From Centroscyllium fabricii (lineage: Eukaryota), in contig JBNRSN020000029.1 in NCBI GenBank assembly GCA_051313645.2, forward strand, positions 23,126,001 through 23,190,000: a DNA stretch of 64,000 nt, read 5' to 3'. Positions 31,609-44,830 of the stretch are shown in pieces. The notes under the pieces are model-generated. The model ran no database searches and was not told the origin of the DNA. It was given only the letters and a program-made list of their open reading frames with translations. Each line of letters starts with the position of its first letter. Positions within the stretch are counted from its first letter, which is position 1. A program made the translations under genes and the position numbers.

Positions 31609-32203
31609 TGTAACGGTTGTAGGTTGGGCCCAAATGCAATACACCGAAAACATACGTAGAAGTAAACTCCTTTATTTCTGAGCAGTCAAAGACATAGGAA
31701 ACAGTAGGTCAATAACGGCAGAAAGTCCACGGGAGCGACAAATCGAAAACAGAGTTCAAGCGGAAGAGAATCCAAATTCAGAAACAGTATAATACCGGGT
31801 AGTCCGTCCACGGGAGCGACAAATCAAAAACAGAGTTCAAGCAGAAGAGAATCCAAATTCAGAAACAGTATAATACCGGGTAGTCCGTCCAAGGGAGCGA
31901 CAAATCCAAAACAGAGTTCAAGCAGAAGAGAATCCAAAATTCCAGGAAGCAGGTCAGTATCTCGAACAGACAGGGTCAGAGAGCTAGGAACTAAACACAG
32001 GTATCACAGTCAGAAAGAATAAACGATCTGGCAACCTCTAGGTGGAAAGTAGGAGCTTATATACAGCTCTTGATTACTACTGGTTAATCTGGGCTGTTCA
32101 ATCAGGTGTAGGCAGTAGCTAACGAGGTGATAACCAGTTAAAGGGGAAGAGCCAACCTAGGAGTTAAAGGGGAATAGCCAACCTATGACAGAACCCCCCC
32201 CCC

Positions 32204-35200
32204 TCAAGGGACTGCTCCCGACGTCCCAAACCCCAAATGCCGGAGTCGGGTGGGCGGAGGGGGGCGGAGGAGGGACCAACATTCCTCAGGAGCCTCATCC
32301 ACGTCCATTTCATCACAAGAATGAAGGGAATTCTCCTCATCAGAGGATTGCACCTCCTCGTTCAGGGTTTCAAGAGAATGCACGGAACCGGGCCCTTGCC
32401 CAGATTCCCCAGGGGGCGCAGTCCTCCTACTCGGCTGGTCGGGATGCCTTCTGTGGAAGTCGGCCATAAGCTGAGGATCAACTTTGTGATGAGCAGGAAC
32501 CCAGGACCTCTTCTCTGGACCATACCCCTCCCAGTTCACCAGGTACTGAAGTCCTCTCCCTCGACGATGGGAGCGAAGTAGGCGATGAACAGTGTAGACC
32601 AACCCACCGTCGAGCATACGAGGAGGCGGAGGGGGCGTGGCAACAGGCACCAAAATACTCTCTTGTGCTGGTTTGACCAGTGACACATGAAAAGTGGGAT
32701 GAACCCGCATGGATCGACGAAGCTTGAGTCTCACTGCCGCTGGGTTGATGACCTTCTGGATCTCGAAGGGCCCGATAAATCTGGGAGCTAGCTTCTTAGA
32801 CTCCACCTGGATGGGCAGGTCCTTAGTGGAGAGCCACCCCCTCTGCCCAGCCTGATAGTTAGGAGCCTCCGAGCGACGACGGTTGGCAGCAGCCGAGTAG
32901 CGGTCCGCCGAGCGAAGCAACGAAGTCCGTGCCTGGTCCCATGTCTGGCGACAACGATGAATAAATGACTGGACGGACGGACAGGAAACCTCCCTCTCCA
33001 GGTCCGGAAACAATGGGGGCTGGAATCCATAGGCGCACTGGAACGGGGAGAGTCCGGTGGCGGAACTGGTCAGGGTGTTGTGAGCGTACTCTACCCACAG
33101 GAGTAGCTGGGACCAGGAAGAGGGATTCTGGGAGACCATACATCGGAGAGCCTTCTCCATCTCCTGATTTATACGTTCAGACTGCCCGTTGGACTGCGGG
33201 TGAAAACCCGACGACAGGCTGACTGTGGCCCTGATCAGACTGCAGAACTCCCTCCAGAATACTGAAGTAAACTGAGGACCCCGATCAGAGAATACGTCGA
33301 CAGGAAGACCATGAAGACGGAAAACATGTTGCAGCATAAGTTCAGCCGTCTCCTTCGCCGAGGGCAGTTTAGGCAGAGGTATGAAATGGGCCATCTTGCT
33401 GAATCGGTCCACCACTGTCAGGATAGTGGTTAGTCCCTTGGATGGGGGCAGACCGGTAACAAGGTCCAAGGATATGTGGGACCAAGGACGATGTGGTACC
33501 AGCAGAGGTTGCAGAAGACCAGCGGGAGCCCGATGAGACGGCTTGTGTTGATTGCAGACCGAGCAGGCGTTGACAAACACCCGGGTGTCTTCCTCCAGAG
33601 TATCCCACCAGAACCTCCGCAGTATAACCTCCTTGGTCCTTTGAGCCCCCGGATGGCAGGAAAGCTTGGAAGCATGGGCCCACTGGAGAACATCAGGTCG
33701 AAGGTTCTTGGGAATGAATAGACGGTCGCGAGGACAACCGCTGGGTCCAGACCGATCTTCCATGGCTGATCTCACCCTCTCCTCGATCTCCCACGTAACA
33801 GCAGCAATCAGACAAGGAGCTGGAAGAATGAGGTCAGATCCAGGAGCGGAACTCTCCTCCTTCTGGAACTGGCGGGACAGAGCATCAGGCTTGATGTTGC
33901 GAGAACCAGGCCGGTAGGAGAGTGTGAAGTTGAAACGGGTAAAGAAGAGGGACCACCTAGCCTGCCGTGAATTCAGCCTCTTGGCCGTTCGAATGTATTC
34001 AAGGTTTTTATGGTCTGTCCAGACTAGGAACGGCAGCTTGGTCCCCTCTAGCCAATGGCGCCACTCCTCCAATGCCATTTTGACCGCCAGTAACTCCCGG
34101 TTCCCGATGTCATAATTCATCTCAGCCGAGGACAGGCGTTTGGAAAAATAGGCACAGGGATGTAGCTTTTGGTCGGAAGCCGAATGTTGGGACAGAATAG
34201 CTCCTACTCCAACATCTGATGCGTCCACCTCTACCACGAACTGCTGATCCGGATCAGGCACCTGGAGGATGGGAGCAGAGGTGAACCGGGACCTGAGACC
34301 TCAAAAAGCCTCCTCCGCTGCAGAAGAGCACAGGAACAGCACGTTAGAGGAGGTAAGAGCCAATAACGGGGCCGCTACCATGCTGTCGCTGCGAATGAAC
34401 CGTCGATAAAAATTAGCGAATCCCAGAAACCGCTGTAGCTGTTTACGTGTCTCTGGAATAGGCCATGACGCGACAGCTGACACCTTCTCTGGATCCATCT
34501 GCACGCTCCCCTGCGCAATGATGTACCCCAAGAAAGATACGGTAGTGACGTGAAACTCACACTTCTCCGCCTTCACAAATAATGAGTTCTCGAGAAGCCG
34601 TTGCAGGACAGTCTGGACATGGTGAACATGCTCCTCACGAGACTTAGAAAAGATTAAAATGTCGTCCATGTACACGAACACAAACCGGTTCAGCATGTCT
34701 CTTAATACGTCATTAACCAAGGCTTGGAATACCGCCGGGGCGTTGGTTAACCCGAACGGCATTACGAGGTATTCATAATGTCCAGAGGGAGTGTTGAAAG
34801 CAGTCTTCCATTCATCGCCCTCTCGGATCTGGACCAGATGATAGGCGTTATGAAGGTCCAGCTTAGTAAAGATGGTCGCCCCCTGTAGCAACTCAAAAGC
34901 AGAAGGGATGAGAGGAAGAGGATACCGGTTCTTTATCGTGATGTCATTAAGACCCCTGTAGTCGATGCATGGTCGCAGCGACCCGTCCTTCTTACGCACA
35001 AAAAAGAATCCAGCCCCAGCAGGTCATGAAGAGGAACAGATGATCCCCGCCGCCATGGAGTCGCTGATGTACGTTTCCATGGCCTCCCTCTCAGGTGCAG
35101 ACAAGGAATACAGGCATCCCTTGGGTGGGGAAGACCCTGGCAGCAGATCAATGACGCAGTCATAGGGGCGATGTGGAGGCAGAGACGTGGCTCTAGCTTT

Positions 35201-35758
35201 GCTGAATACCTCCCTAAAATCGTGTTATTCAGTGGGAACCACTGAAAGATCTGAAACGGGATGAGGTGTTAATGGCTGTTGGAGGACGGTAGCCTGTTTC
35301 AGACAGACCTGGTGACAGGAGGAACTCCACCCCAAAATAGCTCCCGTGTTCCAGTCAATGTGGGGGTTGTGGCGGCGAAGCCAAGTGTGTCCCAGAATCA
35401 AAGGAAGCCGAGGTGATTTCAGGATATGAAACTGAATACTTTCATGATGATTACCAGACATAAGCATGTGAACCAGTGAGGTCTGATGTGTCACCGTTCC
35501 CAGGAGGTGACCGTCGAGGGCATTGGCAGGAACCGGCTGCGGCAGTGGAACCCGGTCAATCTCCAGCTGTGTGACAAGATCCTCATCAATAATGTTAACG
35601 TCGGCTCCAGAGTCAATAAAGGTGACGAGAGTCTGGGATCCCCTGGGAAGAAGAAGTCTGGCCTGGCACAAGGGTCGTGGATTGGGAGAGAGTCTTGTAG
35701 GAGTTCGACTCACCAGTACGACCCCATCTACTGGTGAGTCTGGCCTTTTGCTGGGCAT
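32204..35758 (-). pseudogene. Element A pol (PR-RT-RH-IN-chromodomain), fragmented
   Basis: FIDSGA, YMDD, EVDASD, HPG..CSVC, SDRGPQF and chromodomain [17 protein letters not shown]. Stops or frameshifts separate ORFs 35225-35758, 34301-34999 and 32204-34261. Confidence 0.93.
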
Positions 35759-43400: not shown

Positions 43401-44150
43401 CCTCGTATGCTCGACGGTGGGTTGGTCTACACTGTTCGTCGCCTACTTCGCTCCCGTCGTCGAGGGAGAGGACTTCAGTACCTGGTGGACTGGGAGCGGT
43501 ATGGTCCAGAGGAGAGGTCCTGGGTTCCTGCTCGCCACATAGTTGATCCTCACCTTATGGCCGACTTCCACAAAAGACATCCCGACCAGCCGAGTAGGAG
43601 GACTGCGCCCCCTGGGGAGTCTGGGCAAGGGTCCGGTTCCGTGCATTCTCTGGAAGCCCTGCACGAGGAGGTACAATCCTCTGATGATGAGAATTCCCTT
43701 CATTCTTGTGATGAGATGGACGTGGATGAGTGTCCCGAGGAATGTTAGTACCTCCTCCGCACCCCTCCGCCCACCCGATTCCGGCATTTGGGGTTTGGGA
43801 CGTCGGGAGTCGTCCCTTGAAGGGGGGGGGGGGGTTGTCATAGGTTGGATATTCTAGCTCTCTGATCCTGCCTGTTCGTGATACTGACCTGCTTACTGGA
43901 AATTTGGATTCTCTTCTGCTTGAACTCTGTTTTGGATTGTCGCTCCCATGGACGGACTACCCGGTATATTACTGTTTCTGAATTTGGATTCTCTCCTGCC
44001 TGAACTCTGTTTTGGACTTGTTGCCTCCGTGAACTTTCTGTCGTTATTGACCTACTGTTTCCCATGTCTTTGACTGCTCAGAAATAAAGGAGTTTACTTC
44101 TACGTATGCTTTCGGTGTATTGCATTTGGGCCCAACCTACAACCGTTACA
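40434..44150 (+). mobile_element. Inverted 5'-truncated copy C of the element A family
   Basis: Runs from the gag knuckle to the 3' LTR (43836-44150, internally deleted). Highly similar to 32190-35810 in reverse. Confidence 0.93.
40482..43748 (+). pseudogene. Copy C pol (PR-deleted RT-RH-IN-chromodomain)
   Basis: ORFs of 838 aa and 245 aa. There is an in-frame RT deletion ([11 protein letters not shown]), a YTDD motif and a break at ~42998. Confidence 0.92.
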
Positions 44151-44830
44151 GATAGACTGGAGAAGGTGAGGTTGTTCTCCTTCGAGCAGAGAAGGCGAAG
44201 GGGAGATATGATAGGGTTGTTTCACATCATCAAGGTTTCAGAGAAGAAATAAAGATAAACTGTTTCCAATCACTGAAGGGTCGATAACGAGTGGGCACAG
44301 ATTTAAGGTGATTGGCAAAAGAACGAGAGGCTGCATGAGAAAAACTTGTTTATGCAACGAGTGATCAGGATTTCGGATGCATTGTCTGAATGGGTGCTGG
44401 ATACAGATTCAATAATAACTTTGAAAACACAATTGGATCAATAATGGAAGGGAGAAATAATTACAGGGATACGGGGAAAGAGTGGGGGAGTGTGACTAAC
44501 TGGATTTCTCTTCGAAAGAGCTGGCATAGAATTGATGGGCCGAATGGCTTGCTTGTGTACTGTACTGTTCTTTGATTCTATGATGTTAAACACCTCAGTT
44601 ATATCACCAGTTACTCCTTTACATATAAGGGAATACTTATCTAGTCTCTGCAACCTGCTCTCATAATTGAGCCATTTTAGCTCTGGTGTCATTCTGGTGA
44701 ATGTGCACTGCTCCCACTCCAAGGCCATTCCGTTGGCCTTTTTCATTTTTGTTGTAGCTGTCCATTACCTTTTCGTGATTCTTGTATTGGACCCGTAAAT
44801 CTGTCTGGTCATGCACAGTTCCTAGCATAT
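44151..44830. mobile_element. CR1 fragments (+ 44151-44580; - 44590-44830)
   Basis: GATAGACTGGAGAAG..TTCGAGCAGAGAAGG..; paralogous to 57150-57236/58620-59330. Confidence 0.75.

What the first reader, a model, noticed from the sequence alone, without database searches (positions are those of the whole stretch)
31609..44160. Displaced target-site duplication records an inversion plus deletion between two opposed Gypsy copies, probably decapitating a defensin gene
The LTR at 39898-40396 is closer to the LTR at 43836-44150 than to 31609-32190 (repeat number and variants). Its flank 40397-40433 in reverse is CR1 sequence ending ..GTTACATGGATAG, and the flank of the last LTR starts GATAGACTGGAG. 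These are the two halves of one CR1 with TSD GATAG, now in opposite orientation. The uninterrupted paralogous site is seen at ~57140 (GTGACGTGGATAGACTG). Inference: ectopic recombination between inverted elements flipped the spacer, then a deletion removed nearly all of it. That deletion would include whatever lay upstream of defensin paralog 1, which now lacks exon 1.
Basis: partly seen in the sequence, partly recalled or inferred. Interest (0 to 1): 0.7.

Follow-up and report, generated by a model that had tools for sequence, protein, structure and literature searches.

The report
Rearrangement between two inverted retrotransposons
Two facing copies of a jumping gene recombined, turning one copy's front end around and deleting the DNA between them; this is a clear example of a known kind of rearrangement, and the claim that it destroyed a working defensin gene is not supported.

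Summary
The displaced target-site duplication is real. LTRs 39898-40396 and 43836-44150 are sisters (310/314 identical; LTR 31609-32190 has 20 private differences). Both are flanked by GATAG in opposite orientation, and those flanks are two in-frame halves of one CR1-like LINE. So the 5' end of one chromoviral Gypsy copy now sits inverted on the 3' half of another, and the DNA between them is lost.

The simple 'inversion, then deletion' reading fits less well than proposed. The inner 1.2 kb of the two pol arms differ at only 20/1181 non-CpG sites, against 98/2211 outside. The junction at 40426-40434 carries microhomology plus a 14-nt skip. I slightly favour one replicative event with two template switches (0.5) over reciprocal inversion plus separate deletion with conversion (0.4); two tests for shared derived changes gave it no support.

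Decapitation of a defensin is unsupported. Paralog 2, away from the rearrangement, also has no first exon in the window, and both remnants look degraded from long before the insertion. No reads from this genome were available, so misassembly is unlikely but untested. Known kind of event; modest interest.

The parts
31115..31604 (.). 18-bp tandem satellite; insertion site of the left (A-type) element, whose outer 5-nt flank is TCACC (31604-31608)
   Evidence: none of four satellite 11-mers recurs right of 32200
31609..32190 (-). 3' LTR of the left element, the odd LTR out (extra 81-bp unit, 20 private differences)
32191..34409 (-). polypurine tract and outer pol arm of the left element (RNase H, integrase, SH3, chromodomain); about 5.5% different from the right copy
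34070..34484 (-). inferred switch zone between A-type and C-type sequence (best point 34410; partner positions 41540-41954)
   Evidence: change point in arm identity, inferred
34410..36268 (-). inner pol arm (protease, RT) and 3' part of gag of the left element; 34410-35806 is 2.8% different from the right copy
36269..39449 (-). nested, internally deleted Gypsy of a second family; LTRs 36269-36919 and 38799-39449 differ at 1 of 651; direct TSD CTGGA
39450..39897 (-). 5' part of gag and leader of the left element
   Evidence: 74% to the nested element's gag
39898..40396 (-). 5' LTR, sister of LTR 43836-44150
40397..40433 (-). inverted left half of the target LINE with the displaced TSD (40397-40401); the last 8 nt are shared with gag
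40426..40434 (+). microhomology junction: 9 nt match gag, then 14 nt of gag are skipped
40434..43835 (+). right element, 5'-truncated at the end of gag; 216-bp deletion in RT at 41239/41240; one in-frame stop
43836..44150 (+). 3' LTR of the right element, with an internal deletion of about 185 bp
44151..44570 (+). second TSD copy (44151-44155) and right half of the target LINE
45014..45465 (+). defensin-like paralog 1 remnant: degraded last exon plus 3' flank; clear similarity to the full gene only from 45256
57095..57240 (+). uninterrupted paralogous LINE site with a single GATAG
59505..59949 (+). defensin-like paralog 2 remnant, also without a first exon in the window
61742..63310 (+). complete defensin-like gene model: signal-peptide exon 61742-61823, Cys-rich exon 62940-63007, six-Cys last exon 63158 (or 63195)-63310
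   Evidence: Atlas lead only

Best explanation
Two copies of one chromoviral Gypsy family once lay in opposite orientation: A in a satellite, and C in a CR1-like LINE with TSD GATAG (inferred from flanks that are shown). One replication-repair event then made two template switches (inferred). Synthesis running through A jumped at homology near the end of RT to the inverted copy C, copied C backwards through RT, protease, gag, its 5' LTR and about 30 nt of LINE, then jumped by microhomology back into C at the end of gag and went on forwards. Result: A's 5' half and the spacer are deleted, about 1.2 kb of C's pol is present twice in inverted orientation, and the TSD is displaced. The nearby defensin-like remnant was most likely already dead.
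For: Shown: sister LTRs, which also share a variant nearly absent from the family in two public runs (site 44041); opposite GATAG flanks and in-frame LINE halves; two other LTR elements in the window keep normal direct 5-nt TSDs. For one step: non-CpG differences between the arms are 20/1181 inside and 98/2211 outside, and 0 of 400 permutations reach this change point. The inner rate matches the sister-LTR rate (3/314, p=0.45); the outer rate does not (p=0.002). Constraint does not explain it: the protease stretch is the least conserved against outgroup proteins (52%, against 68-79% elsewhere), yet the gag-end/protease stretch is less diverged than the outer coding arm (12/567 vs 81/1986, p=0.03). 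The junction has a 9-nt templated match and a 14-nt skip (rough chance 2e-4). Human inverted-repeat template-switch rearrangements have one homologous and one microhomology junction, some with small deletions (PMC11293582, passages and Table 1).
Against: No excess of shared derived changes in the inner arms: 0 of the 4 inner sites shown as near-fixed family differences are shared by both arms (287 rows hidden), and shared departures at conserved protein columns are 3/161 inside vs 4/282 outside. Inner differences are still enriched for synonymous sites (12/248 vs 14/778 non-synonymous), as expected if some arose between active lineages; no formal neutral expectation was computed. Conversion between close inverted arms, or a mosaic parent element, gives the same change point. 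No reads or second haplotype of this genome were available.
Confidence: 0.5

Rival explanations
1. Two steps, as the first reader proposed or in the reverse order: a reciprocal crossover between inverted copies A and C flipped the spacer, and a separate microhomology-mediated deletion removed it. Flipping 34.4-41.6 kb back gives an intact C with GATAG on both sides, preceded by a truncated A, so deletion first is as likely as inversion first. The inner similarity then needs gene conversion or a mosaic parent.
For: Same TSD, LINE and LTR evidence. No shared derived changes seen in the inner arms. Exchanged TSDs and chimeric copies are the published signature of ectopic recombination (PMC2775673, passages), and 12 of 49 retrotransposon-mediated inversions in human and chimpanzee came with deletions (PMC2603318, passages).
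Against: A single crossover predicts even arm divergence; the change point is significant. It needs two or three events where one suffices.
Confidence: 0.4
2. Assembly artefact: the segment between the inverted arms was flipped or mis-joined.
For: Inverted repeats of 3.4 kb; no read data could be checked: no run holds half of the flank's words and no listed contig bridged the junction.
Against: The arms differ at 158/3400 sites and the longest identical run is 144 nt. The window has no N and resolves long low-complexity arrays. The microhomology-plus-skip junction looks like repair, not a mis-join, and would stay real even if the middle were flipped.
Confidence: 0.04
3. Functional add-on of the first reader: the deletion removed exon 1 of a living defensin gene (paralog 1).
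For: Everything upstream of the LINE left of 44151 is gone; in the full paralog exon 1 lies about 1.4 kb upstream of the last exon; no exon 1 homologue exists for paralog 1.
Against: Paralog 2 has an intact upstream site and about 14 kb of window upstream, yet no exon 1, exon 2 or promoter homologue. A + strand scan finds a TATA-plus-donor signal exon only at 61742 (7 hits, 3 of them that exon). Neither remnant has the six-Cys motif in any frame, and both lack the second cysteine codon of the full gene in the alignment.
Confidence: 0.08

Closest known systems
Retrotransposon recombination-mediated inversion (RRMI) between inverted Alu or L1 pairs, human/chimpanzee (PMC2603318; passages read)
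   Same: Opposed copies of one family, chimeric elements, TSDs that no longer match; 12 of 49 came with deletions.
   Different: Here the elements are chromoviral Gypsy LTR elements, only one of the two TSD pairs survives, and the inner arms look duplicated or converted; no ancestral state was available.
Galileo-generated inversions of Drosophila buzzatii, 2z3 (PMC2775673; abstract and passages read)
   Same: Opposite orientation, exchanged TSDs, terminal repeats more alike between copies than within a copy.
   Different: DNA transposon; reciprocal and without deletion; both TSD pairs kept and the non-inverted chromosome sequenced.
Inverted-repeat template-switch rearrangements (DUP-TRP/INV-DUP; BIR then MMBIR or end joining) (PMC11293582; passages and Table 1 read)
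   Same: Junction 1 inside homologous inverted repeats, junction 2 with a few nt of microhomology, sometimes with small deletions.
   Different: Those are copy-number gains between long, nearly identical human repeats; here the net result is a deletion with a 1.2-kb inverted duplicate between 95%-identical transposons.
Chromodomain-bearing Ty3/Gypsy elements of fishes (Tf2-like polyproteins)
   Same: PR-RT-RH-IN-SH3-chromo order, 5-nt TSD, TG...CA LTRs; best protein hits 76-78% over 71% of the query, named hits from teleosts.
   Different: No listed protein above 78%; all copies here are defective.

Membership tests
TE-mediated ectopic-recombination inversion | Two homologous copies in opposite orientation | tested here: met
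   3.4 kb of arms, 158/3400 differences, opposite strands
TE-mediated ectopic-recombination inversion | Exchanged or non-matching TSDs | tested here: met
   GATAG pair in opposite orientation; TCACC unmatched. The second exchanged pair is not present in the window.
TE-mediated ectopic-recombination inversion | Both copies chimeric (reciprocal exchange) | tested here: inconclusive
   Left copy is chimeric by its LTRs; the right copy's inner part is not shown to be A-derived; the change point argues against it, the shared-change tests do not settle it
TE-mediated ectopic-recombination inversion | Non-inverted ancestral arrangement seen in another haplotype or species | not testable with these tools
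   No genome held; best run holds 0.12 of the flank words; no bridging joint listed, 28 joints hidden
Inverted-repeat template-switch rearrangement (BIR/MMBIR type) | First junction within homologous inverted repeats | tested here: met
   LTR mismatch requires a switch inside the arms; best position 34410/41614
Inverted-repeat template-switch rearrangement (BIR/MMBIR type) | Second junction with microhomology or templated bases | tested here: met
   9-nt gag match overlapping the LINE end, 14-nt skip
Inverted-repeat template-switch rearrangement (BIR/MMBIR type) | Inverted segment is a copy of one template | tested here: inconclusive
   Inner divergence fits a copy, but no shared derived changes were seen
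Inverted-repeat template-switch rearrangement (BIR/MMBIR type) | Both junctions arose in one event | not testable with these tools
   Needs population haplotypes
Chromoviral Ty3/Gypsy LTR retrotransposon | PR-RT-RH-IN order with C-terminal chromodomain | tested here: met
   Pfam, (Chromo E=8e-07 in P0002)
Chromoviral Ty3/Gypsy LTR retrotransposon | TG...CA LTRs, polypurine tract, 5-nt TSD | tested here: met
   one LTR has a changed terminal base
Beta-defensin (full gene 61742-63310) | Signal peptide exon and six-cysteine motif ending in CC | tested here: met
   C-x6-C-x4-C-x11-C-x5-CC and a hydrophobic leader; the canonical spacing it is compared with is recalled
Beta-defensin (full gene 61742-63310) | Family profile, homologue or fold match | tested here: inconclusive
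   Pfam 0 families; no homologue; 2 unrelated repeat proteins; no defensin among 13 PDB sequence rows; Atlas beta-defensin cluster at 0.82, a lead only; small beta-rich model, pLDDT 72, no fold match
Beta-defensin (paralog 1 remnant) | Open six-cysteine last exon | tested here: not met
   No frame holds the motif; these frames were not scanned against Pfam

The most novel reading that the evidence does not exclude
A single inverted-repeat template-switch event, of the two-junction type described for human genomic disorders, was fixed in the germ line of a non-mammalian vertebrate between two 95%-identical Gypsy copies. In doing so it removed a shared upstream first exon that fed both downstream copies of the last exon (45.1 kb and 59.6 kb), silencing a divergent defensin-like branch that looks multi-copy in related species.
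Probability: 0.05. Interest if true: 0.55.

Novelty: new member of a known kind. Interest (0 to 1): 0.25.

Why it matters
It is a clean molecular fossil of a transposon-driven rearrangement, readable from one sequence, and it shows that a displaced TSD need not mean a reciprocal inversion: arm identity points to a copy-and-delete event or to conversion. Such events are well documented in other genomes, so the general lesson is not new. No effect on a working gene is shown. The complete defensin-like gene next door, with an extra cysteine-rich exon and no database homologue, may deserve more attention than the rearrangement.

Tried and rejected
No genome is held, so other family copies could not be used as outgroups. 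Protein search found no family member above 78%; 60 of the 120 listed proteins were used as distant outgroups, which polarised 12 of 17 inner and 50 of 67 outer amino-acid differences about equally to both copies and did not locate the crossover.

Run search: 13 runs listed, none with half of the words; no RNA holder listed, which is no evidence on expression. Four of the 13 were laid, all as contigs, on 40200-45600 only. No joint across 40433 or between 40433 and 44151 was listed, but 28 joints and 2004 loose ends were hidden, so this is no evidence either way.

Constraint as the cause of the change point was tested and found insufficient. CpG differences alone show no change point (351 of 400 permutations reach it). 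Chance TSD match was rejected through LINE continuity.

Defensin searches by Pfam, protein databases, PDB sequence and fold gave nothing. The butyrophilin rows (E 0.018 or worse) were taken as chance. The reading frames of paralogs 1 and 2 were not scanned against Pfam. Three look-ups of earlier scan findings returned nothing.

Literature: searches listed no paper whose title or abstract start deals with a cartilaginous-fish beta-defensin (20 of 31 and 9 of 9 listed), and section 14 of PMC6795676 names none; the library lacks most subscription papers. listings were not followed up. No supplements were read; those of the cited papers could bear on how common LTR-element cases are.
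Full report
Setting. The window is repeat-rich vertebrate DNA with no N. No genome is held and no call names the host; a cartilaginous fish is my guess from recalled repeat types. Self-comparison and direct reading show two inverted arms, 32191-35806 and 40434-43835, of one Gypsy family. Pfam gives protease, RT, RNase H, integrase, SH3 and chromodomain in that order. The nearest listed proteins are 76-78% identical, and the named ones are from teleost fishes. 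A second Gypsy family is nested in the left copy's gag at 36269-39449; its LTRs differ at 1 of 651 and it has a direct TSD.

Observation. In 314 columns shared by the three LTRs, 20 differences are private to LTR 31609 and 2 each to the other two; a fifth difference between the sister LTRs, at the terminal base, fell outside that alignment. LTR 31609 has an extra 81-bp unit. At site 44041 the two sister LTRs share a letter that almost none of the family depth carries in two public runs, while LTR 31609 has the family letter. The outer flanks are TCACC, reverse GATAG and GATAG. Two other LTR elements in the window have ordinary direct 5-nt duplications. The 37 nt beside LTR 39898 align to two other LINE copies better than all of 5000 shuffles each, and the halves read in one frame over the single GATAG. 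A LINE ORF with the same C-terminal motif hits RT/endonuclease proteins, many from birds, which I call CR1-like from knowledge.

What follows directly. LTRs 39898 and 43836 came from one insertion (C) into the LINE. Its 5' LTR and gag now lie inverted, joined to the 3' half of another insertion (A) that sits in an 18-bp satellite. A's own 5' LTR, its flank and the rest of the LINE's left half are not in the window. Two junctions are required: one inside the homologous arms and one at 40433/40434.

The visible junction. The LINE match covers 33 nt, and the last 8-9 nt are an exact match to gag, followed by a 14-nt skip before gag resumes (rough chance 2e-4). Microhomology plus a nearby small deletion is seen at second junctions of human inverted-repeat template-switch rearrangements (PMC11293582, passages and Table 1). 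It also fits an ordinary end-joining deletion.

The hidden junction. The arms differ at 158 of 3400 aligned sites, unevenly. A change point falls at 41614/34410 (two-unit interval 41540-41954): 33/1181 inside against 122/2211 outside; non-CpG 20/1181 against 98/2211, reached by 0 of 400 permutations; transversions 8/1201 against 51/2191, reached by 2 of 400. The inner non-CpG rate (1.7%) is compatible with the sister LTRs (3/314), and the outer rate (4.4%) is not (p=0.002) but is near the A-versus-C LTR rate (32/498, p=0.06). Constraint is not enough: the protease stretch is the least conserved against 57 outgroup proteins, yet less diverged than the outer coding arm (p=0.03). A single reciprocal crossover predicts no such step. 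Copying of C's inner part does, and so does gene conversion or a mosaic parent.

Results against the one-step reading. If the inner arms were copied after some decay they should share private changes. Of 40 rows shown (287 hidden), 12 lie in the arms; at all 12, including the 4 inner ones, the left copy differs from the right, so none is shared. Shared departures at conserved protein columns are 3/161 inside and 4/282 outside. Unshared departures are fewer inside (4/161 vs 19/282), but not significantly (p=0.07). Inner differences remain richer in synonymous changes (12/248 vs 14/778). A copy made soon after insertion survives these tests, but they give it no support. I put one step at 0.5, two steps in either order at 0.4 and misassembly at 0.04. 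The order of two steps cannot be read from the product.

The defensin claim. A complete gene model lies at 61742-63310: TATA box, signal exon, a Cys-rich middle exon and a six-Cys last exon. The defensin label rests on the motif and one Atlas lead (0.82); Pfam, homologue, PDB and fold searches were blank. The remnants at 45014-45465 and 59505-59949 share clear similarity with it only from the terminal CC onward. Neither has the six-Cys motif in any frame, and both lack the second cysteine codon in the three-way alignment. They are 85% identical to each other (376/441), far older than the insertion. Promoter, exon 1, intron 1 and exon 2 of the full gene have no homologue elsewhere in the window, and a scan for signal exons finds TATA plus donor only at 61742; a hit at 59409 lies in a TG microsatellite and has no TATA. 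Paralog 2 is therefore headless without any nearby rearrangement. The one escape is a shared first exon upstream of both remnants, or a different coding type for these exons, which are multi-copy in related runs. Nothing here shows either.

Comparison. Opposed copies with exchanged TSDs are the published signature of ectopic recombination (PMC2775673, abstract and passages), and TSD mismatch was used to polarise retrotransposon-mediated inversions in primates, 12 of 49 with deletions (PMC2603318, passages). This locus works like those cases and meets two of their four features; reciprocity is inconclusive and the ancestral state could not be tested. It also meets the two-junction anatomy of template-switch rearrangements. 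It is a new member of a known kind.

Verdict. Observation confirmed; mechanism partly revised; gene damage unsupported. Interest 0.25.

Noticed in passing
window 61742-63310: Complete defensin-like gene with two possible splice forms: 65 aa (exons 1+3) or 100 aa with an extra C-G-C...CC exon and an upstream acceptor at 63158, ten cysteines in all. No homologue in three protein collections searched with the last exon; Atlas lead to beta-defensin at 0.82.
   Followed up: partly
window 45087-45465: The paralog-1-type exon region is covered by up to 24 contigs per site with high summed depth in coded runs X3, X6 and X10, a hint of a multi-copy family in relatives. One X1 contig matches 45231-45430 with 1 difference in 200.
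   Followed up: no
window 40434-44150: The Gypsy family is very deep in runs X1 and X3 but almost without cover in X6 and X10 at 85% likeness, while its nearest named proteins are from teleosts at up to 77%: a recent burst, with horizontal transfer as an untested lead.
   Followed up: partly
window 36269-39449: Young, internally deleted Gypsy of a second family nested in gag; one open 626-aa frame fuses gag, protease and an acidic tail; LTRs differ at 1 of 651.
   Followed up: partly
window 2743-7249: A third Gypsy-type element on the minus strand (pol frame 4282-6132), LTR parts 97% alike over 274 bp, direct TSD CTGCA.
   Followed up: partly
window 19533-28852: Old LTR-bounded element, LTRs 83% alike over about 720 bp, with a duplicated stretch at 28047-28153 beside the right LTR; looks retrovirus-like and decayed (label from recall, not tested); it splits a C-rich satellite (16130-19530, 28860-29675).
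   Followed up: no
window 49412-49698 and 61217-61419: Two self-complementary (palindromic) stretches, 90% and 87% alike to their own reverse complement; the second lies about 320 bp upstream of the defensin-like start codon.
   Followed up: no
window 10953-13500: Two tandem arrays (about 11.0-11.6 kb and 12.45-13.35 kb) with inverted similarity of 10530-11088 to 13259-13824.
   Followed up: no
window 41239/41240 and 43851/43852: The right Gypsy copy has two private deletions, 216 bp in RT and about 185 bp in its LTR.
   Followed up: partly
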